A stretch of 64,000 nt of DNA from a virus. Of this stretch, positions 23,915 to 31,059 are shown piece by piece. The stretch is from UHGV virus genome UHGV-0167591; one strand, written 5' to 3'. A program made the translations under genes and the position numbers. The notes under the pieces were generated by a model. The model had not been told where the DNA came from. It worked only from the letters and a program-made list of their open reading frames with translations, and ran no database searches. How positions within the stretch are numbered: the stretch's first letter is position 1; each line of letters opens with the position of its first letter.

Positions 23915-24394
23915 TTATGTCCCAAGTGCTCTTTTTCTGCTTTGTTTGAGTGTTCTGATTTTACTGTCATAGGTTACAACATAGGCTGTTTTGAGAAGCC
24001 AATAGTCTCTACGTGCGGATAGCACAACAACGTAGTTTTCACACTCATTCCAGATTACCCACTCTTCAGTTGGTCCTCGTCTTTCAGACCAACATGATAT
24101 ATCGCAATGGTTATAATTCCTTATCATATGCGCGATCCAGCGAATTCGCTTGCACCGTTCAAGATCGGGTATACGTTCTTCTTCTATTTTTCCCTCTGAT
24201 ACTAAATGCCAAAATCCGAATTCTTTCCCATCATATTCCGGTGAATAACGTAATCGAACAGGGAGACCCTTAAACGTTATATTAGAGATTAAAATATCTT
24301 CTCTAACAACATCATATACATCGTCTATATACTCTTGCCAACTTCCATTGAAGTACAATAAATCTGGCATTTGAAGCATCAACGAGCCTCCCAC
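23915..24394 (-). CDS. hypothetical protein, distal gene of the AT-rich cassette (P1 rlfB position)
   Basis: 159-aa ORF overlapping the upstream gene by 16 nt; very low G+C. Confidence 0.45.
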   Translation of the reverse strand: MGGSLMLQMPDLLYFNGSWQEYIDDVYDVVREDILISNITFKGLPVRLRYSPEYDGKEFGFWHLVSEGKIEEERIPDLERCKRIRWIAHMIRNYNHCDISCWSERRGPTEEWVIWNECENYVVVLSARRDYWLLKTAYVVTYDSKIRTLKQSRKRALGT

Positions 24395-25083
24395 ACGAAA
24401 ATATTAAATTTACTTTCTGTTGGAAGAGTGCTTTTTAGTAACTCCCTGTTTGTATGTGATTTTATCCTATTTATGACTTGGATTTTTCCCGCGTTGCTAT
24501 TCATTCCTCGATGAACGTAGCCTAACGCACCAATGAAAAGATCCGTTAGCTGCAATTGTTGCACTTCATGAGATCGTATATGTTGAATTCTGTTTATCGA
24601 CTCATGATTGTAATCATAGCGATCATTGTGAAGAACCCCTCTTAATTTCTCAATTTTTTCAATACCTAAAGTATCTTTTATATCTAGGTAGATATTGTAT
24701 GTGTTGTTACTTTCTATTATGTTTTTTAAGACATAAAAAAACATCTTATAATAGAAAGTATTATGATCTTGATGGAATCGAGCATGGTCCAGTTGCTCTT
24801 TATCAGGAACAACAACACCTCTAAAGCGCAATGCTGGGTTGCTGAAGAAGTAATCTACGACATCTAAGTAAAATTCAACTTTGGACGCAGATACTTTAGT
24901 CCACTTGATTTCGAAATCAGGTTTTAGATTGTGTTTTAATTTTAATTCCTTGATATCTCTAGCAATTTTTTTTGTGATAGTGCCAGGGCACCAAAGCGCA
25001 CCCAATACCATGACTTTATTATGATCATTTAGTAGGTGACAGGATTCATCGCAGAATACATTAAATGTTCTTCGGTTCAACAT
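24379..25083 (-). CDS. DUF3800-like protein (P1 rlfA position)
   Basis: 234 aa with N-terminal FCDESCH motif and NIYLDIKD / QLTDLFIG segments recalled from DUF3800-family proteins; very low G+C. Confidence 0.45.
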   Translation of the reverse strand: MLNRRTFNVFCDESCHLLNDHNKVMVLGALWCPGTITKKIARDIKELKLKHNLKPDFEIKWTKVSASKVEFYLDVVDYFFSNPALRFRGVVVPDKEQLDHARFHQDHNTFYYKMFFYVLKNIIESNNTYNIYLDIKDTLGIEKIEKLRGVLHNDRYDYNHESINRIQHIRSHEVQQLQLTDLFIGALGYVHRGMNSNAGKIQVINRIKSHTNRELLKSTLPTESKFNIFVWEAR

Positions 25084-25234
25084 GTTAACTCCACTTATTG
25101 TTAGGTAGAATTGTCCGTTAGTTGTTTATTAATTGCAATAATGGGACGTCCAGTTTTGGCAACTGTGTCCTCTTACCAAGACGCCTATGAGTTCGCCTCA
25201 TGGCAAACTAGAAGTGTTGAAAGTATGCATGGTT

Positions 25235-25253
25235 CTAATTAGAGCAATTTATT
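25235..25253. promoter_or_regulatory. partial C1 operator-like site just downstream of the repL stop
   Basis: ctaattagagcaatttatt contains the attgctctaat core (11 of 17 consensus positions). Confidence 0.35.
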
Positions 25254-26097
25254 AACCTCTGAATCCTGCCGGTATACCCCATTGTTCGTTATCTTTATTT
25301 TTGGCTAAAACCGCATTAAGAGCTTCGTTTACCGTCATGCAATGCGGCAGATTATCGAAGTTTGATATCCCACCAATATCAGGAGAACGCTTGTTCTTCA
25401 GGTAAGCATATTTCCGCGCTGCCGCCTCTACTTTCTGCTTGAACTCATGTTTTTGAGCGCGTTTTTTGGATAACCGCAGATTGTCAGCCTTTGCTTTTGC
25501 CTCAGCGATCCATGAAGTCAATTTTTTGAGTCTGGTCGTTCCGGCACCGCCGGAAACTGATCTTTTTGTTTTTTTAACTTGTGACTTCTTATTCTTTATT
25601 GCCACGTCATCCTGACAGGGGGAGGGGGTATCATTTTGACATGGGGGTGTGGATAAAAAATCAAATAAAGCCAATGTCTTAGCGAGAACAGCTTTAACCT
25701 TGGTTGCGGCTGAAGAGATCTTTAATTTGCTTTCAGTCAGCGCGTTTTTAGCTTGTTGTGCGAAGGCCAAAAAGGATGGTGTAAACCGGTACAGGTTAGC
25801 GCGGCGTTCACGGTGATCGCCGATAACAATCTCTACAGACAGGATTCCTTTGTTTACAGCTTCACGGAATGCACGAACGACGGTTGATTGACTATAACCA
25901 GTTTCTGCCGCGATCAGGCGGTGAGGCTTGTGAATGAAGTATTCACTGGTTGTAGCCGCGAGATTTGCACATTGCGACAGGATATACCCGGCGCTACGGG
26001 ATAGACCGGAGTGTGTTACAAAGCAGGCCAATTCATAGCCAGAAAAAGTAAAATCGCTCATCGTTATACAGCTCAGGAAAGTGACTTTAGCCAGCAT
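25252..26097 (-). CDS. repL: lytic replication initiator RepL
   Basis: 281 aa directly downstream of kilA in the same operon; basic C-terminal half. Confidence 0.7.
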   Translation of the reverse strand: MLAKVTFLSCITMSDFTFSGYELACFVTHSGLSRSAGYILSQCANLAATTSEYFIHKPHRLIAAETGYSQSTVVRAFREAVNKGILSVEIVIGDHRERRANLYRFTPSFLAFAQQAKNALTESKLKISSAATKVKAVLAKTLALFDFLSTPPCQNDTPSPCQDDVAIKNKKSQVKKTKRSVSGGAGTTRLKKLTSWIAEAKAKADNLRLSKKRAQKHEFKQKVEAAARKYAYLKNKRSPDIGGISNFDNLPHCMTVNEALNAVLAKNKDNEQWGIPAGFRG

Positions 26098-26126
26098 TAC
26101 AATGCTGGTGGTTCTTACTACGTCTG

Positions 26127-26927
26127 TTAGCGCGTTGCCGCGACAGGTACCAGCACACCAGCATCAAGCAATCGCTTCATCAGCCACTGCTGACCTTTGC
26201 CGGTTATACGAGTCGTGAAAGAAATCCTGCTTCCATTGCTTGTATCGATCACGGTTTCTTTGAGGGTGAAATACCCACGGGATATGTATTCTTGTTTTGG
26301 GACGTTCCTGCGCTCACCGGTTGCGATCAGAATTCCGTTATCACGCAACCAGGTGAAGAGATAGTTTTGGCCCAGGCCGAGCACTTTGGCATAGTTGCCG
26401 ATTAGAACCCCGCTGGCGGTAGCAACGCGTTCGGCAAATTCGACTTTAGGGGCATCCAGAAGCATTTTTTGCTCCAGCCGTTGCTTTTGCTCTGCCAGGT
26501 CGGCAGCCAAACGGAGAGCTTCAGGGAGACTCTGCGGAATAGCAGGTTGTAATCTTCCGGCTCGATAGTCGATAAATGTCTGGTTTACCTTCAGCCGAAA
26601 CGCGGGAGAAATCCAGCCTGCGTACTCCACAGCGAGCAATTCATGGGCAAAAGTGCCGCCGCCACGGCCTTCGAACGAAACTATGCAATTCTGCATAGTT
26701 TCTTTTTCCAGCTCTTCGATGAGCTGTTTGGCTGACAGCGTTCTTAGCCATTGAGCTGGCGCTTTATGGGCACCGAGTCCGCTCGCTCTGTGTAGAGCAT
26801 TAAGGTTGTAACGGCCAGCGCGGTCGGTCGTAATTTCAACACCACAAATAACAGGCAGAGTGGTTGAAGGATCGACATTTTGATGAAGGTTTGATATATT
26901 CATATCCGCATTGAATGTTTGTTGCAT
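26127..26927 (-). CDS. kilA: KilA (antirepressor-family C-terminal domain protein)
   Basis: 266 aa; C-terminal segment (PEALRLAADLAEQKQRLEQKMLLDAPKVEFAERV...) parallels the Ant C-terminus. Confidence 0.75.
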   Translation of the reverse strand: MQQTFNADMNISNLHQNVDPSTTLPVICGVEITTDRAGRYNLNALHRASGLGAHKAPAQWLRTLSAKQLIEELEKETMQNCIVSFEGRGGGTFAHELLAVEYAGWISPAFRLKVNQTFIDYRAGRLQPAIPQSLPEALRLAADLAEQKQRLEQKMLLDAPKVEFAERVATASGVLIGNYAKVLGLGQNYLFTWLRDNGILIATGERRNVPKQEYISRGYFTLKETVIDTSNGSRISFTTRITGKGQQWLMKRLLDAGVLVPVAATR

Positions 26928-26996
26928 TTTTTCTCCAAATTTGCATCAACCTTCAATCACCAGCTCGAAATGGTGATTCTTTGCACTTAGAAAACG

Positions 26997-27014
26997 AAAT
27001 TTATTAGAGCAAAT
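26997..27014. promoter_or_regulatory. C1 operator upstream of kilA-repL (Op53-like)
   Basis: aaatttattagagcaaat: 16 of 17 match to the reverse complement of ATTGCTCTAATAAATTT. Confidence 0.6.
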
Positions 27015-27055
27015 TTTTCCAGTCCGATCCAGATCGGGTTGGTCGATCTGCTCAG

Positions 27056-27086
27056 AAACCTGCCAGTTAGCTGGCAGGTTTTTTTG
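27056..27086 (+). terminator. rho-independent terminator on the plus strand, antisense to the kilA leader
   Basis: aaacctgccagttagctggcaggttttttt. Confidence 0.55.
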
Positions 27087-27211
27087 TATAAGGCGTTTTT
27101 CAATGTGGATTTGTGGCTGGCTAAAACGGAAAAGGCCACAGGTTTTACCCTGTGGCCTGTTCGGGCGCAACGCGCTGCTGTTACACTGCGAACTAACGCC
27201 CTTCAATGTTG

Positions 27212-27328
27212 TTATGCAATGTGGAGAAGTGAGGCAATCACTGATGCCAACACAGAACTTGAAGCTCCGATGATGACAGGAACAATGATGTTGGTCACAA
27301 TCCACTTGCAAGCTTTTTGAAGAGTCAT
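27212..27328 (-). CDS. 38-aa hydrophobic micro-ORF (possible small membrane peptide)
   Basis: MTLQKACKWIVTNIIVPVIIGASSSVLASVIASLLHIA; GGAG 7 nt upstream of the ATG. Confidence 0.3.
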   Translation of the reverse strand: MTLQKACKWIVTNIIVPVIIGASSSVLASVIASLLHIA

Positions 27329-27394
27329 TACGAAGCTCCGCACACTTGCAACAGCAACTGCTTGCGGCTATCCTCTTGTTGATCAGACATAAGG

Positions 27395-27445
27395 AATGCC
27401 CTCGCTGGTTGCCTCCATGCAACGTTGTGGCGAGGGTTTTTTCTG
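27395..27445 (+). terminator. terminator-like structured hairpin (plus strand)
   Basis: gccctcgc...gcgaggg stem followed by ttttttct. Confidence 0.4.
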
Positions 27446-27566
27446 TCTGGAGGCTACGCATCCAGGAGTTCATAACCCCCGCATAACGTTGCGCCTCCCC
27501 TGAAAAACAGGGTTGGGCATATCGTACACATGCCTGTAATTTATGGCAAATCCTGGTCTGAATACG

Positions 27567-28613
27567 TTAAGACAAGGACGCCACTGGTTTTAACAAACCA
27601 GCATCAAGTAGCTTGCGAGTTAACCACTGCTGGCCTTTACCCGTTAATTGGGGCGTCAGCCGTATCTGGTAGCCATTTTCATCATCCAGCACCACTTCTT
27701 TCACCGTGAAATACCCGGCGTTGATGTACTGTTGGCGCGGTACGTTTTTGCGCGCTCCAAAAGCCATGAGAATGCCATTCTGGCGCAACCATGAGAAAAG
27801 GGCGTTTTGCTTAAGTCCAACGACCTTTGCAAAGTTCCCGATCAGGATTCCATTGGCCACTGATACCCGGTCGGCAAAATCGACTTTAGGGGCTGCGGCC
27901 ACCAGCTGTTGTTCCAACTGCATTTTCTGTTCTGCTAACTCGGCAGCCAGGCGTAGGGCTTCTGGTAATGTCTGGGGGATCGATGGGGTAGGGGAGTTTG
28001 CCTGCTGTAATTCTTCCAGTTTGTCGATCAGCGAACGGCGGACCGCTTTCGATTCGCGCGCGGCGACTCGCAGGGCTTGTTTGTAGGTCATGGTTATGAC
28101 AACCATAGGCGTACCGCCACCTGGCGGCACGGTTGCACTTTTTGTGTAACCGTCCTCACCTTCTAATTCGTCGAGTATTTTTTCGATGAATTTGTTGTTC
28201 CGAACCTCTGGTTCCCCACATAACTTACGCGCTTCATTGACCATCTTTAACAGTGTCAGGCTGTCGATTGTGTCTCCGGTGGTGGGGATGACATTCACGG
28301 CTGGTGCTGGCGTTGCTGAAGCAACAGGTGCTGGTTTTTCAACATTTAAATTATTACCGGTCATTCTATGTGCCTCCTTTCTCATTTCTGCTGCCACTGT
28401 TGCGTAACGTAGACGTCCTTGTTCAATCAAATAATCCCTGATCTCGGCTATCAGTAGCCTGTTGATCACAGCCTTATCTGTTCGGGTATAAAAACGTCTG
28501 GTTATCATGAAATAGTTAGCAATTGCGCCGGGGATCTCCCGTGTCGGCATACAGGTAGTATGCAAGGCGATCGCTTCGGCTATTTCATTACGGGTGACGA
28601 GAGGTGTTTTCAT
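27567..28613 (-). CDS. ant: antirepressor Ant
   Basis: 348 aa; C-terminal Ant/KilA-type domain (QTLPEALRLAAELAEQKMQLEQQLVAAAPKVDFADRV); start overlaps the icd stop. Confidence 0.8.
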   Translation of the reverse strand: MKTPLVTRNEIAEAIALHTTCMPTREIPGAIANYFMITRRFYTRTDKAVINRLLIAEIRDYLIEQGRLRYATVAAEMRKEAHRMTGNNLNVEKPAPVASATPAPAVNVIPTTGDTIDSLTLLKMVNEARKLCGEPEVRNNKFIEKILDELEGEDGYTKSATVPPGGGTPMVVITMTYKQALRVAARESKAVRRSLIDKLEELQQANSPTPSIPQTLPEALRLAAELAEQKMQLEQQLVAAAPKVDFADRVSVANGILIGNFAKVVGLKQNALFSWLRQNGILMAFGARKNVPRQQYINAGYFTVKEVVLDDENGYQIRLTPQLTGKGQQWLTRKLLDAGLLKPVASLS

Positions 28614-28831
28614 AAACCCCCCTGAACGTCGGCAGAGAAGGGGAGGCTCCAGTAACTAAGTGAATTGCGCGAGTCAGTTGAAAAACGGGCAGTAAAAATG
28701 CAGGGGCCATCAGGCAATTGAGAGCGTGCTTCGTCTTCAGTTGCTGCGATAACGAAGTGATAGTGGTGTTTTTTACAGGAATAGAAACGCCAGATGAATT
28801 CTGGGCGTGCGCAAGGATTGGCATTAACCAT
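28610..28831 (-). CDS. icd: small protein overlapping the ant start (P1 Icd-like)
   Basis: 73-aa ORF ending in ATGA overlap with ant. Confidence 0.5.
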   Translation of the reverse strand: MVNANPCARPEFIWRFYSCKKHHYHFVIAATEDEARSQLPDGPCIFTARFSTDSRNSLSYWSLPFSADVQGGL

Positions 28832-28869
28832 AGTTACGGCCTCACTAACAGGTTTAACAACCTGCTACC

Positions 28870-28965
28870 CGCTGCTAAACAGGTGGCAGGACGTGACGGG
28901 GTTAGCAGACTGGCGTTAGTGAAACCAGCAGGCCGAAGCCTCCCCATCACGCCCCACCATAATTT
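28870..28965 (-). ncRNA. c4: c4-type antisense RNA region (approximate bounds)
   Basis: ctgctaa at 28872-28878 and 29041-29047 with complementary ttagcag at 28902-28908, the arrangement expected for c4 and its target sites. Confidence 0.4.
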
Positions 28966-29145
28966 GGGCGTAACGCGGTTTTACGGACACAAAAATACCG
29001 CAATATCGGATATCTGCGGTTGTCCGCACTAACATTCAGGCTGCTAAACCCGGTCGCAGAATTTGCTACGACGGCGGAACTATAAGCCTGAACGATTAAA
29101 AGGTCAATATGATGCGAAAAGATAGCATTCGCGACTTAAAAATAC

Positions 29146-29160
29146 AAATTTATTAGAGCA
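29146..29160. promoter_or_regulatory. C1 operator-like site in the immunity-region promoter
   Basis: aaatttattagagca: 15 of 17 match to the reverse-complement consensus. Confidence 0.5.
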
Positions 29161-29231
29161 TTAATTGTATAGTAAATACACAAATGGATCTAATAACCTC
29201 TTTTTTTTAAAGGCGAAAATATGTACCCTAA

Positions 29232-29906
29232 ATGGGTTGTAAGGCAGGTGAGGTTATAATGAGAAAACTATTATTACCGTTATTATTTATGGCTGGGACT
29301 GTTAATGCAGCATCAAGTGTAAAGGAGATTTGTACCGATTATACGAAATACCTTGGGCACGTTTACGGCTTTGCTGTCAGTCAAGACGAATCCATGCGCA
29401 AGAAGTTACTGTCAGATATGAAACGTCTTAAACTTTCTGAAGCGATGGTGCAGCAAGAACTATATAAAGTCGCAACCAACGAAAATGCTAAATATCAATA
29501 TTCTCGCCTATTAAATCCCGACGCAAACGAGATCAATCGAAGCACTTTCGATTATATGGTAAAGGCATGCGAAACCGCTCCTGATTTTGCTATCCCTAGC
29601 TGGGGTGTGCTGGTGGCGAGCAATGCCGTTAATAAAGAAGATGTTGGAAGAAATGGCATTGACTCAATCAGAAATGCCCCAGGAATGCGCCATCAAAGCG
29701 TGCAGAGTACGCTTGAAGAGCGGGCCAGGGGGCCGGGTACAAACTCCCCAATGGGAAACCTCTCACCAGAGGAATTGCAAGAGTATAACCAACGGATGGA
29801 GCAGTATGAGAAAGCGGCACGCGAACAAATGGAACAACAAAAGAACGGCTCACTTAATACCTTCCAGCAAGGTTTAAAGGCGCTTAATTTACCATATGAA
29901 TGGTGA
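29232..29906 (+). CDS. secreted superinfection-exclusion-type protein (P1 Sim-like)
   Basis: Signal peptide MRKLLLPLLFMAGTVNAASS; internal segment IRNAPGMRHQSVQSTLEERARGPGT shared with Sit. Confidence 0.5.
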   Translation: MGCKAGEVIMRKLLLPLLFMAGTVNAASSVKEICTDYTKYLGHVYGFAVSQDESMRKKLLSDMKRLKLSEAMVQQELYKVATNENAKYQYSRLLNPDANEINRSTFDYMVKACETAPDFAIPSWGVLVASNAVNKEDVGRNGIDSIRNAPGMRHQSVQSTLEERARGPGTNSPMGNLSPEELQEYNQRMEQYEKAAREQMEQQKNGSLNTFQQGLKALNLPYEW

Positions 29907-29957
29907 ATATATGGTGGTTAACTAATTAAAATATTAATATCCAAAGGAGATAAATTA

Positions 29958-30434
29958 ATGCACATCAAACGATTTTTTCTAATTCTTGCTTTGCTTACTC
30001 CTTTTTCGTCAATGGCAAATGTAAGCAAATGGTCAACCAGCGAGACTCATGGTGTTCGTTCTTATGCTGTTTCCAGCAAAGATAATTATACGCTTACATT
30101 TGAGTGCGATGTTGGATTTAATAATACGGATCCCAATCAAGTAGGAACACGACTACTCACTCTCATGAAAACAGAACCTGGCGGTGAGTCATTTGATGCT
30201 AAAAAAGAACAAATAACGCTGAAAGTTGGTGATGATGAATATCCTATCAGTTCTATCGGTTCCTCTGTGGGTGATAGTTACTGGTATGGTTTCTGGTCAG
30301 ATACCCCTGATATGGAAGTTAAAACATTCGATGCATACGTAGACGGAAAAAAAATCGCAACATTTACGCTACGTAAGGCCGCAGAGCTTTTCAACGCGGC
30401 ACCTAAAGATGGCTGCCTGAAGCGCGCAAAATGA
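29958..30434 (+). CDS. secreted protein of unknown function
   Basis: Signal peptide MHIKRFFLILALLTPFSSMA; about 38 percent G+C by eye. Confidence 0.45.
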   Translation: MHIKRFFLILALLTPFSSMANVSKWSTSETHGVRSYAVSSKDNYTLTFECDVGFNNTDPNQVGTRLLTLMKTEPGGESFDAKKEQITLKVGDDEYPISSIGSSVGDSYWYGFWSDTPDMEVKTFDAYVDGKKIATFTLRKAAELFNAAPKDGCLKRAK

Positions 30435-30436
30435 CC

Positions 30437-30461
30437 TGTCACAAATGACTACTCGTAGAAT
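30437..30461 (+). promoter_or_regulatory. late-promoter-like box
   Basis: tgtcacaaatgactactcgtagaat. Confidence 0.3.
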
Positions 30462-30468
30462 CGGTTAA

Positions 30469-31059
<591 letters not shown>

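What the first reader, a model, noticed from the sequence alone, without database searches (positions are those of the whole stretch)
26928..27566. Structured intergenic region between ant and kilA with plus-strand terminators and a 38-aa hydrophobic micro-ORF
The 640-bp spacer holds a C1 operator (26997-27014), two plus-strand terminator hairpins (27056-27086 and 27395-27445) that are antisense to the flanking minus-strand genes, and a minus-strand 38-codon ORF (27212-27328) encoding an almost entirely hydrophobic peptide with a GGAG Shine-Dalgarno. This looks like antisense-RNA control of the lytic replicon and possibly a type I toxin-like peptide with an antisense regulator.
Basis: seen in the sequence. 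Interest (0 to 1): 0.45.

Follow-up and report, generated by a model that had tools for sequence, protein, structure and literature searches.

The report
Ldr/Rdl-type toxin cassette in P1-like plasmid
The long spacer between ant and kilA is the normal phage P1 control region plus a roughly 490-bp insertion, and that insertion is a complete but divergent copy of the E. coli ldr/rdl "long direct repeat" toxin–antisense-RNA module, a family previously reported to be absent from mobile elements.

Summary
The spacer has two parts.

**Part 1, 26928-27086.** This is about 97% identical to phage P1. It holds the annotated C1 operator Op53/OrepL, promoter P53/PkilA and Dam sites. The first plus-strand hairpin ends the known P53as antisense RNA of the lytic replicon.

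**Part 2, about 27087-27575.** This is absent from P1 and P7. It is one complete LDR (ldr/rdl) type I toxin-antitoxin unit.
- A DNA profile built from 73 enterobacterial LDR units hits 27531-27121(-) at E=1e-37.
- The 38-codon ORF sits exactly where ldr sits.
- The second plus-strand hairpin is the terminator of an Rdl-like antisense RNA, about 62 nt (27381-27442). Its promoter (TTGCAA-17-TATCCT) is kept in all 43 aligned representative units.

**How it departs from the curated families.** The peptide gets no Pfam or NCBIfam match and lacks the Trp and basic tail of Ldr, but it keeps the PxxxG motif. Against two divergent relatives on other mobile elements, dN/dS is about 0.3. Rfam rdlD scores below threshold.

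**Verdict.** This is a new variant of a known kind. Toxicity and repression are inferred, not shown.

The parts
26872..26900 (+). PaskilA (P53as) promoter inside the kilA 5' end; the antisense RNA starts at about 26908
   Evidence: P1 annotation mapped across 97%-identical sequence. The promoter scan gives TCGACA-17-TATATT, 10/12, with an upstream TG.
26908..27086 (+). P53as-type antisense RNA of the kilA-repL lytic replicon, about 180 nt, ending at hairpin 1
   Evidence: Annotated transcription start in P1. Terminator hairpin at -21.3 kcal/mol, z = -5.7. This stretch is conserved with P1 and P7.
26997..27013 (-). C1 repressor operator OrepL (Op53)
   Evidence: P1 annotation protein_bind at L001 3098-3114. 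The sequence is identical in alignment A1.
27003..27031 (-). PkilA (P53) promoter, with three Dam GATC sites at 27026-27048
   Evidence: P1 annotation; sequence read directly.
27054..27086 (+). Hairpin 1 with T7 run: terminator of the P53as RNA. This is the last stretch shared with P1.
   Evidence: I8; megablast matches to P1/P7 end at 27085.
27087..27575 (-). Insertion relative to P1/P7: one LDR (ldr/rdl-type) type I toxin-antitoxin unit. It replaces about 20 bp of P1 and changes the last Ant residues (PVAIG* becomes PVASLS*).
   Evidence: Alignment with P1. Full-length in only 17 PLSDB plasmids and in 9 of 5426 E. coli genomes, with one further genome holding a partial copy. nhmmer LDR profile hit 27531-27121(-), E=1.3e-37.
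27123..27158 (-). Intrinsic terminator of the toxin mRNA: 10-bp GC-rich stem followed by UUUUCCGUUUU
   Evidence: Conserved with covariation across 43 LDR units (cols 396-423).
27164..27172 (-). 3' box CGUUGCGCC, which pairs with the 5' box to give a hok fbi-like end-to-end closure of the mRNA
   Evidence: Perfect 9-nt inverted repeat I11. Paired in the minimum-free-energy fold. The GGCGCA/UGCGCC core is kept in 41-43 of 43 units.
27212..27328 (-). 38-codon toxin-position ORF, the divergent 'class 3' Ldr-like peptide, with SD GGAG at 27339-27336
   Evidence: It sits in the same position as ldr in 73 units. dN/dS is 0.27-0.34 against two divergent relatives. hhalign against canonical Ldr gives P=6.7e-5, gapless; Pro17 and Gly21 line up with the Ldr PxxxG motif when the sequences are read side by side.
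27328..27390 (-). Candidate 20-codon leader ORF (MSDQQEDSRKQLLLQVCGAS). Its SD GAGGG is at 27403-27399 and its stop overlaps the toxin start as UAAUG.
   Evidence: The start and SD lie inside the Rdl-complementary stretch. The frame is not conserved in relatives, so this part is inference.
27346..27374 (+). Promoter of the Rdl-like antisense RNA: -35 TTGCAA, 17-bp spacer, -10 TATCCT. This is the conserved 26-nt motif read on the other strand.
   Evidence: Near-invariant in all 43 aligned representative units. The motif recovered 57 genome loci. The same 10-nt offset to the annotated K-12 rdlD 5' end and to the Rfam rdlD hits is seen.
27381..27443 (+). Rdl-like antitoxin RNA, about 62 nt: single-stranded 5' tail, then hairpin 2 as terminator, then U6
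   Evidence: Rfam rdlD aligns full-length here at 18.4 bits. My own CM, built from 40 class 1+2 Rdl sequences, gives 25.9 bits, E about 2e-5, the only significant hit in 64 kb. Fold -22.4 kcal/mol.
27487..27495 (-). 5' box GGCGCAACG, the partner of the 3' box
27498..27512 (-). 5'-terminal stem-loop of the toxin mRNA (CCCUG/CAGGG)
   Evidence: The structure is kept with different sequences in LDR units: GCCGGG/CCCGGU, UCCCG/CGGGA, GCCAG/CUGGU, CUCAG/CUGAG.
27521..27549 (-). Predicted toxin-mRNA promoter TTGCCA-17-TACGAT, with transcription start at about 27514
   Evidence: Promoter scan. The -10 element aligns with the conserved TAGAAT of LDR units.
27567..28613 (-). ant (antirepressor, KilAC domain), the upstream flank
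26127..26927 (-). kilA (KilA-N + KilAC domains), the downstream flank

Best explanation
The spacer is a composite of two modules.

**(1) 26928-27086: the ordinary P1 lytic-replicon control region.** C1 binds Op53 and represses P53 (kilA-repL). The roughly 180-nt P53as RNA, started inside kilA, runs antisense across P53 and stops at hairpin 1.

**(2) About 27087-27575: a single inserted LDR unit, a type I toxin-antitoxin cassette of the ldr/rdl family.**
- The minus strand gives a highly structured mRNA of about 390 nt (27514 to about 27125). It has a 5' stem-loop, a 5'-3' closing helix, a 186-nt 5'UTR, an SD, a 38-codon ORF for a single-helix membrane peptide, and its own terminator.
- The plus strand gives an Rdl-like RNA of about 62 nt (27381-27442). 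It comes from a conserved promoter embedded in the 5'UTR and ends at hairpin 2.

**Proposed mechanism (inferred, by analogy with ldrD/rdlD and hok/sok).** The antisense RNA pairs with the 5'UTR about 50 nt upstream of the toxin start. Pairing blocks toxin synthesis indirectly, probably in one or both of two ways. It may occlude the SD and AUG of a short leader ORF (27390-27328) whose stop overlaps the toxin AUG. It may also create an RNase III substrate. The stable, closed toxin mRNA outlives the labile antisense RNA. If transcription of the element stops or the element is lost, the peptide is made and damages the inner membrane. On a low-copy phage-plasmid the likely payoff is post-segregational killing or phage exclusion.

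**Shown:** homology, architecture, RNA structure conservation, and purifying selection on the ORF.
**Inferred:** transcription, toxicity, repression and biological role.
For: **P1 part.** 26900-27085 is 97% identical to P1/P7 and carries their annotated Op53, P53 and P53as features.

**Insert is homologous to LDR units.**
- Absent from P1.
- The nhmmer profile of 73 LDR units, built without any class-3 sequence, hits 27531-27121(-) at E=1.3e-37 and nothing else in the window.
- With the 26-nt search motif removed, the 5'UTR part still gives E=3.4e-16 and the 3'UTR part E=4.5e-13.
- The motif ATAGCCGCNANCNGTTGCNNTTGCAA recovered 57 genome loci, many in 2-3 tandem copies about 475-530 bp apart. 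Most carry canonical Ldr ORFs 12-14 nt downstream.
- Rfam rdlD hits these loci above its gathering score, exactly 10 nt from the motif. The annotated K-12 rdlD has the same offset.

**Antisense RNA in the window.**
- Rfam rdlD aligns full-length at 27381-27442.
- A CM from 40 class 1+2 Rdl sequences gives E about 2e-5, the only significant hit in the window. It is absent from P1.

**mRNA structure.**
- Fold -164 kcal/mol, z = -6.6.
- The 5'-3' helix is conserved in 41-43 of 43 units.
- The 5' stem-loop and the hairpin stem show compensatory changes.

**Peptide.**
- Three divergent class-3 versions exist: the window, a Pantoea ColE1 plasmid, and a metagenomic primase/resolvase element. They keep length and start, and carry an in-frame indel. 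dN/dS is 0.27-0.34 with dS of 1 or more.
- The PxxxG motif of Fst/Ldr toxins is present (PMC7472228).

**Precedent.**
- LdrD is toxic and RdlD represses it; a Sok-like leader-ORF model has been proposed (PMC4147584).
- The ldrD/rdlD duplex is an RNase III substrate (PMC7373196).
Against: - There are no expression or toxicity data for this cassette.
- The peptide gets no Pfam Ldr_toxin or NCBIfam hit. It lacks the conserved Trp and charged C-terminal cluster of the Fst/Ldr signature. In one relative (Lpt) the charged tail was needed for toxicity.
- Its lysines are N-terminal, so its membrane topology may be inverted relative to Ldr. This is inference.
- Rfam rdlD scores 18.4 bits against a gathering score of 50.
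- My CM score of 25.9 bits is no higher than the reverse-strand 'echo' hits at canonical loci. The strand call therefore rests on the T-run, the promoter, and the 12.8-bit plus-over-minus difference in the window.
- The leader ORF is not conserved in frame among relatives. The literature's ldrX start position is ACG here.
- Chromosomal ldrD-rdlD did not give post-segregational killing (PMC5367252).
Confidence: 0.8

Rival explanations
1. Decayed LDR relic. The RNA scaffold is a hitch-hiking remnant, and the ORF has drifted into a harmless hydrophobic reading frame that is not a working toxin.
For: - The ORF region is the only part of the unit that the LDR DNA profile cannot align.
- There is no Pfam or NCBIfam match, and the Trp/basic tail is lost.
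- Several carrier plasmids tolerate IS insertions in the cassette.
Against: - The ORF is intact in all 21 plasmid copies that tblastn found.
- Three lineages at 53-59% amino-acid identity keep start, length and hydrophobic helix. Their indel is in-frame, and dN/dS is about 0.3 at saturated dS.
- SD, promoters and both terminators are all intact.
- IS insertions that specifically uncouple the ORF from its promoter fit a costly gene at least as well as a neutral one.
Confidence: 0.1
2. A non-toxic small membrane protein 'moron'. The peptide would have a benign accessory role, such as superinfection exclusion or modulating a host membrane protein. The Rdl-like RNA and structured mRNA would merely tune its level.
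For: - The peptide differs from Ldr in charge distribution and lacks the C-terminal signature.
- It is found only on mobile elements: P1-like plasmids, a ColE1-type plasmid and a primase/resolvase element.
- Phage-plasmids commonly carry such cargo (general knowledge).
Against: - The full regulatory apparatus of a toxin module is retained under evident constraint. This includes the closed, stable mRNA, the sequestered SD and the cis-antisense RNA.
- PxxxG-containing single-helix peptides of this superfamily are toxic wherever tested (PMC7472228).
Confidence: 0.08
3. Both plus-strand hairpins belong to antisense control of the P1 lytic replicon or of ant, and the micro-ORF is incidental.
For: Hairpin 1 is part of that system. 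Both hairpins lie between ant and kilA on the strand opposite to those genes.
Against: - Hairpin 2 and everything from 27087 to about 27575 are absent from P1, P7 and most P1-like plasmids, which regulate kilA-repL without them.
- Hairpin 2 has its own conserved promoter.
- It is homologous to rdlD in chromosomal loci that have no phage context.
Confidence: 0.02

Closest known systems
ldr/rdl long direct repeats (LDR-A to -D) of E. coli K-12: type I toxin-antitoxin, LdrD toxin and RdlD antisense RNA (Kawano et al. 2002; Rfam RF01813; Pfam PF13940)
   Same: - Unit size of about 450-500 bp.
- The same order of parts: promoter, 5' stem-loop, GAGGCGCA box, Rdl-target hairpin, embedded Rdl promoter, SD, short hydrophobic ORF, UGCGCCCGAA box, terminator (alignments A3 and A4).
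- Antisense RNA of about 62-66 nt, starting about 50 nt upstream of the toxin AUG at the same offset from the conserved motif.
- PxxxG in the helix.
   Different: - The peptide is 38 aa, not 35.
- No WHD motif, no Trp plus basic C-terminal tail, and lysines at the N-terminus.
- No Pfam or NCBIfam hit.
- The antisense RNA is below the Rfam threshold, with a C:G to U:A compensatory change in the stem.
- Single copy on a phage-plasmid, instead of tandem chromosomal copies.
hok/sok of plasmid R1 (and the chromosomal hok loci)
   Same: Both are cis-antisense type I modules. The antisense RNA targets the 5'UTR rather than the toxin SD. The long, stable mRNA is closed by 5'-3' pairing (fbi-like). A leader reading frame is possibly coupled to the toxin. 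Both reside on plasmids.
   Different: There is no sequence relationship. The peptide is not Hok (no Pfam Hok_Gef hit). Rfam sok scores 13.2 bits, E=0.44. Whether the mRNA is 3'-processed here is unknown.
P53as (PaskilA) antisense RNA control of the P1 kilA-repL lytic replicon
   Same: 26872-27086 is this system, 97% identical to P1, with the same operator, promoters and terminator.
   Different: It accounts only for hairpin 1 and the operator. It does not explain the micro-ORF, hairpin 2 or the minus-strand terminator.
Fst/RNAII (par of pAD1) and the Fst/Ldr toxin superfamily
   Same: Single-helix peptide with a PxxxG motif. Plasmid-borne relatives act in post-segregational killing (PMC7472228).
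   Different: In Fst systems the antisense RNA overlaps the 3' end. The superfamily's Trp/charged C-terminus signature is missing here.

Membership tests
Ldr/Rdl (LDR) type I toxin-antitoxin unit | Whole-unit colinearity and sequence homology with LDR repeats (5'UTR, embedded antisense promoter, 3'UTR, terminator) | tested here: met
   nhmmer profile of 73 units gives E=1.3e-37 at 27531-27121(-). With the search motif removed, E=3.4e-16 (5' part) and E=4.5e-13 (3' part). Alignment with K-12 LDR-D and Citrobacter units.
Ldr/Rdl (LDR) type I toxin-antitoxin unit | Cis-encoded Rdl antisense RNA reaching the Rfam RF01813 gathering score (50 bits) | tested here: not met
   18.4 bits, E=0.11 in a 141-nt search, though full-length at 27381-27442(+). 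Canonical and class-2 loci score 50-81 bits.
Ldr/Rdl (LDR) type I toxin-antitoxin unit | Antisense RNA of about 60-66 nt opposite the 5'UTR, about 50 nt upstream of the toxin AUG, with its own promoter and a terminator hairpin | tested here: met
   - Promoter TTGCAA-17-TATCCT, conserved in 43 of 43 aligned units.
- The offset to the K-12 rdlD 5' end is identical.
- My own CM gives 25.9 bits, E about 2e-5, the only significant hit in the window.
- Hairpin plus U6 on the plus strand only.
- Transcription itself was not tested.
Ldr/Rdl (LDR) type I toxin-antitoxin unit | Toxin matches Pfam PF13940 (Ldr_toxin) | tested here: not met
   No hit at E<=10 for the 38-aa or 43-aa form. A canonical Citrobacter Ldr scores 84 bits as a control. 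NCBIfam gives nothing either. Profile-profile comparison with canonical Ldr gives only P=6.7e-5, probability 64%.
Fst/Ldr toxin superfamily | P/D/S/T-xxx-G motif inside the transmembrane helix | tested here: met
   P17-V-I-I-G21 in the window peptide. hhalign aligns residues 1-28 without gaps to canonical Ldr, which puts it opposite Ldr's P-x-x-x-G when the sequences are read side by side. Motif definition from PMC7472228. The Pantoea variant has Q in place of P.
Fst/Ldr toxin superfamily | Conserved Trp after the helix, followed by a cluster of charged residues at the C-terminus | tested here: not met
   The peptide ends ...ASLLHIA. There is no Trp after the helix and no Arg, Lys, Asp or Glu in the last 30 residues. 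Signature from PMC2887945 and PMC7472228.
Ldr/Rdl (LDR) type I toxin-antitoxin unit | Peptide is toxic on over-expression, and toxicity is relieved by the cognate antisense RNA | not testable with these tools
   This needs experiments. The only indirect evidence is purifying selection and IS insertions that uncouple the ORF from its promoter.
Hok/Sok | Hok/Gef toxin (Pfam PF01848) and Sok RNA (Rfam RF01794) | tested here: not met
   No Pfam hit. Rfam sok scores 13.2 bits against a gathering score of 59, E=0.44. Only the architecture is analogous.
P1 lytic-replicon control region (Op53 / P53 / P53as) | Sequence identity with the annotated P1 operator, promoters and antisense transcript | tested here: met
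   97% identity over 26900-27085 to NC_005856, with features mapped one to one.

The most novel reading that the evidence does not exclude
The conserved Ldr/Rdl RNA scaffold would be a portable regulatory chassis carrying at least three different peptide payloads:
- canonical 35-aa Ldr;
- a 30-aa ...GPxxVALIRHFFKF class;
- this 37-38-aa ACKWI...HxA class.

The third class would be specialised for mobile elements (P1-like phage-plasmids, ColE1-type plasmids, a primase/resolvase element). There it would act as an addiction or anti-phage module, with a toxin whose membrane topology is inverted relative to Ldr. This would contradict the published view that Ldr-type systems are not on mobile elements and are not horizontally transferred.
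Probability: 0.35. Interest if true: 0.6.

Novelty: new variant of a known kind. Interest (0 to 1): 0.42.

Why it matters
Ldr/Rdl is a textbook chromosomal type I toxin-antitoxin system. Surveys reported it on no mobile element (PMC5367252) and concluded that type I loci are not spread horizontally (PMC2887945).

Here a complete Ldr/Rdl-type unit sits in a phage-plasmid, between the immunity (immI) region and the lytic replicon. Copies at 98.7% nucleotide identity or more occur in E. coli, E. albertii and Salmonella plasmids and in one chromosomal prophage. Divergent relatives sit on a Pantoea ColE1-type plasmid and on another mobile element.

The peptide and the antisense RNA both escape the curated Pfam, NCBIfam and Rfam models, and genome annotation misses the gene. 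Some records instead call a probably spurious ORF on the opposite strand.

Practical consequences:
- P1-derived elements may carry an unrecognised killer or addiction function.
- Model-based searches for type I toxin-antitoxin systems under-count the family.
- Comparing three peptide classes in one RNA scaffold gives a natural experiment on how these modules evolve.

Tried and rejected
- **Protein searches with the peptide.** The 5.8-billion-protein word search found only one near-identical entry. The exhaustive HMMER search of 1.84 billion representatives found that entry plus one 53%-identical 38-mer, P0002. tblastn against plasmids found only near-identical copies.
- **Rfam.** A search over 24000-31000 gave nothing in the insert except a chance EF3314_EF3315 hit at E=0.23.
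- **Phage collection.** The distant blastn search gave only trivial 32-nt matches to the terminator.
- **Salmonella Newport plasmid match (L007).** This turned out to be only a look-alike terminator hairpin. The LDR profile does not hit it.
- **The 175-aa and 93-aa ORFs across the region, and the PGAP 'hypothetical protein' on the plus strand.** I rejected these. They cross terminators, promoters and the toxin ORF in antisense, and the LDR homology explains the region.
- **ldrX-type leader ORF at the 5' box.** Not conserved: ATG 49, GTG 13, ACG 12, GCG 5 of 79 units, and ACG in the window.
- **Target-site duplication or terminal inverted repeats around the insert.** None found, only a 13-mer similarity.
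- **Łobocka 2004 (P1 genome paper).** Not held in the library. A literature search for P53as was swamped by unrelated papers. The P1 features therefore rest on the GenBank annotation.
- **Alignment A6 from the CM search.** It contains reverse-strand echo hits, so I did not use it for pair counts.
Full report
**Context.** The window is a P1-like phage-plasmid. On the minus strand lie, in order:
- c4 RNA (Rfam C4, 70 bits, 28879-28964);
- icd;
- ant (27567-28613; KilAC domain);
- the 639-bp spacer;
- kilA (26127-26927; KilA-N + KilAC);
- repL (25252-26097);
- rlfA/rlfB homologues.

**Observation check.** All the reported elements are present.
- The operator at 26997-27013 is identical to P1 OrepL/Op53.
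- Hairpin 1 (27056-27081, then T7) folds at -21.3 kcal/mol, z = -5.7.
- Hairpin 2 (27392-27445) folds at -24.1 kcal/mol, z = -3.9. Its T-run is on the plus strand only.
- The 38-codon ORF at 27212-27328(-) has GGAG 7 nt upstream.
It closes a small minus-strand transcription unit before the kilA promoter.

**The spacer is composite.**
- Megablast against phage genomes matches P1, P7, SJ46, RCS47 and others only over 26900-27085, at 96-97% identity.
- In P1 the ant-kilA spacer is 164 bp. The window sequence from 27087 to about 27575 replaces about 20 bp of P1, and the last Ant residues change from PVAIG* to PVASLS*.
- Mapping P1's GenBank annotation (window = L001 + 23899) places the following: PaskilA/P53as at 26872-26900(+), also the best promoter-like site in the scan; its transcription start at 26908; OrepL at 26997-27013; PkilA/P53 at 27003-27031. 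Hairpin 1 lies about 180 nt from the antisense start.
- This half of the finding is therefore the already described antisense control of the P1 lytic replicon.

**Distribution of the insert.**
- 493 PLSDB plasmids match the query, most of them only over its last ~40 bases at the ant 3' end. Only 17 carry the full insert, and a few more carry IS-split or truncated copies.
- In complete E. coli genomes, 10 of 5426 have it (9 at 94% coverage or more), including one chromosomal prophage, ST2747.
- Copies are 98.7% identical or more across E. coli, E. albertii and Salmonella.

**What the insert is.** A sensitive blastn search of plasmids found diverged matches (70-74%) to the ORF start plus upstream region. 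These were in a 4.4-kb ColE1-type Pantoea plasmid, a Lelliottia plasmid and a Klebsiella aerogenes plasmid. Each has a short hydrophobic ORF at the same place.

Aligning them exposed a near-invariant 26-nt motif just upstream of the SD. Scanning one genome per species for that motif gave 57 loci in Kluyvera, Klebsiella, Citrobacter, Atlantibacter, Salmonella arizonae/diarizonae, Lelliottia, Pluralibacter and others. Many hold 2-3 tandem copies about 475-530 bp apart. The ORF 12-14 nt downstream is, in most, a canonical Ldr toxin such as MTLTQLGVAFWHDLAAPIIAGIIASLIVNWLRNRK. These are LDR (long direct repeat) units.

Rfam rdlD hits these loci above its gathering score on the opposite strand, starting exactly 10 nt from the motif. 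The annotated rdlD of E. coli K-12 has the same offset.

**Statistical test of homology.** I built a DNA profile from 73 units, excluding the window class, and searched the whole 64-kb window.
- It gave one hit, 27531-27121(-), 123 bits, E=1.3e-37.
- The units had been collected with a motif partly derived from the window, so I removed those columns. The upstream part still gives E=3.4e-16 (27533-27372) and the downstream part E=4.5e-13 (27213-27122).
- The coding segment itself is not aligned by the profile.

**The antisense RNA.**
- On the plus strand the motif reads -35 TTGCAA (27346-27351), a 17-bp spacer, then -10 TATCCT (27369-27374).
- The homologous start is 27381. The hairpin and U6 end at 27442.
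- Rfam rdlD aligns end to end at 27381-27442, but at only 18.4 bits.
- A covariance model from 40 Rdl sequences of the other two classes gives 25.9 bits, E about 2e-5, the only significant hit in the window. It also finds the equivalent sites in the Pantoea and metagenomic relatives, and nothing in P1.
- Caveat: reverse-strand echoes at canonical loci reach similar scores. The strand assignment therefore rests on the promoter, the U-run, and the 12.8-bit advantage of plus over minus in the window.
- The outer stem carries a compensatory C:G to U:A change relative to canonical Rdl (pair 99-138).

**The toxin mRNA.**
- A promoter-like site, TTGCCA-17-TACGAT (27549-27521), aligns with the conserved TAGAAT of LDR units. 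It predicts a start at about 27514.
- The 390-nt transcript to about 27125 folds at -164 kcal/mol, z = -6.6.
- A perfect 9-nt pairing joins the 5' box GGCGCAACG (27495-27487) to the 3' box CGUUGCGCC (27172-27164). Its GGCGCA/UGCGCC core is present in 41-43 of 43 aligned units.
- A 5'-terminal stem-loop is kept in structure with different sequences across units.
- This resembles the closed, stable hok mRNA. Reviews already note that ldr/rdl is organised like hok/sok (PMC4147584; PMC8594479).

**The peptide.**
- MTLQKACKWIVTNIIVPVIIGASSSVLASVIASLLHIA has no Pfam or NCBIfam match. A canonical Ldr scores 84 bits as a control.
- Two divergent relatives exist: the Pantoea plasmid peptide MMFVNACKWIGNIILQIAIGVAGSVLASVILAHFHLA, and MMLLKACKWIVTTVIVPTIVGVAGSMIASILLAHFHLA on metagenomic contigs that also carry a PriCT_2/DUF5906 primase, a resolvase and IS1.
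- Pairwise dN/dS is 0.27-0.34 with dS of 1 or more and an in-frame indel. This supports the ORF being translated and constrained.
- Profile-profile comparison with canonical Ldr is weak but gapless over residues 1-28 (P=6.7e-5). Read side by side, this places Pro17 and Gly21 opposite the Ldr PxxxG motif.
- The PxxxG motif of the Fst/Ldr superfamily is kept. The Trp plus charged C-terminus signature is lost (PMC7472228, PMC2887945).
- The only charged residues are two N-terminal lysines. By the positive-inside rule (inference) this suggests a topology opposite to that of Ldr.
- A third, 30-aa peptide class (MTFKEALLLAVVTSVVGPVLVALIRHFFKF) occupies bona fide rdlD-positive units. It is also unrecognised by Pfam and NCBIfam.

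**Mechanism.**
- Shown for E. coli ldrD/rdlD: LdrD kills, RdlD prevents this, and RdlD overlaps the 5'UTR rather than the SD. A Sok-like leader-ORF (ldrX) model has been proposed but not proven (PMC4147584).
- Also shown there: the duplex is an RNase III substrate (PMC7373196).
- In the window, a 20-codon leader ORF (27390-27328) has its SD (GAGGG, 27403-27399) and its AUG inside the Rdl-complementary stretch. Its stop overlaps the toxin AUG as UAAUG. This makes translational coupling plausible.
- The other two class-3 relatives have a start codon at the same place but in other frames. The 5'-box ORF seen in K-12 is not conserved. I therefore treat the coupling step as inference.

**Indirect sign of cost.** Two independent IS insertions in carrier plasmids cut the ORF off from its promoter.
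- An IS of about 1.1 kb, with a 6-bp duplication at 27341-27346, lies between the 5'UTR and the SD.
- An IS1A lies at about 27536, inside the toxin promoter.

**Comparison with what is known.**
- At the level of the unit and its RNAs, the insert is a member of the Ldr/Rdl family.
- At the level of curated models (Pfam PF13940, Rfam RF01813), both components fail. The peptide also fails one of the two superfamily signatures.
- Published surveys found Ldr on no mobile element and found no horizontal spread (PMC5367252; PMC2887945). My literature searches found no report of an Ldr-type module in P1-like elements.
- I therefore rate it a new variant of a known kind. It is of moderate interest, and function is still to be shown.

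Noticed in passing
window 27341-27346 and ~27536; L079 (NZ_CP030784.2), L081 (NZ_CP148447.1), L080 (NZ_CP104510.1): Two independent IS insertions in cassette-bearing P1-like plasmids separate the toxin ORF from its promoter and 5'UTR. One is an 'integrase core domain' IS of about 1.1 kb, with a 6-bp duplication, lying between the 5'UTR and the SD. The other is an IS1A inside the toxin promoter spacer. The Rdl gene stays intact in the first case.
   Followed up: partly
L005, L016, L021, L031, L032, L034, L042, L049, L052, L060, L064 (e.g. L021 4447-5946): A 30-aa peptide class (MTFKEALLLAVVTSVVGPVLVALIRHFFKF and variants) replaces Ldr inside bona fide rdlD-positive LDR units. These are tandemly repeated in Atlantibacter and Kluyvera, and one copy is on a Lelliottia plasmid. 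Pfam and NCBIfam do not recognise it.
   Followed up: partly
79 LDR units from L002-L073, 5' box GGCGCA-NNN (window 27489-27487): In K-12 LDR-D a reading frame opens at an ATG in the 5' box; I took this to be the proposed ldrX, without a source for its coordinates. That position is ATG in 49 units, GTG in 13, ACG in 12 and GCG in 5. The resulting ORF varies from 10 to 87 codons. A leader ORF at that position is therefore not a conserved feature of the family.
   Followed up: partly
window 26922-27320 (+); L002 2336-2734: RefSeq/PGAP annotates a 132-aa 'hypothetical protein' (WP_063099948.1) on the plus strand. It overlaps the kilA start, the P53/Op53 region and the antisense of the toxin ORF. 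It is probably a spurious call, while the real micro-ORF is unannotated.
   Followed up: partly
window 28991-29072 (-): A sub-threshold Rfam isrK hit (46 bits against a gathering score of 50) overlaps the c4-a1b1 target element upstream of the C4 RNA in the immI region.
   Followed up: no
window 27135-27147 and 27580-27592: The 13-mer GCCAC(A/T)GGTTTTA occurs once in the LDR terminator loop region and once at the right-hand junction inside the ant 3' end. It may be microhomology involved in acquisition of the cassette. No target-site duplication was found.
   Followed up: no
L003 (E. coli ST2747 chromosome, NZ_CP007393 2224905-2233384): The same cassette, with the same junctions, lies in a chromosomal prophage-like region. 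Its ant (463 aa) and kilA (282 aa) alleles are of different length. Next to it are an Ail/Lom gene and a truncated lambda-type tail gene J.
   Followed up: no
L002 33-188; L081 533-688: Some cassette-bearing P1-like plasmids also carry a hokD type I toxin gene downstream of repL, where this window has rlfA/rlfB homologues. Two different type I toxin modules can therefore flank the lytic replicon.
   Followed up: no
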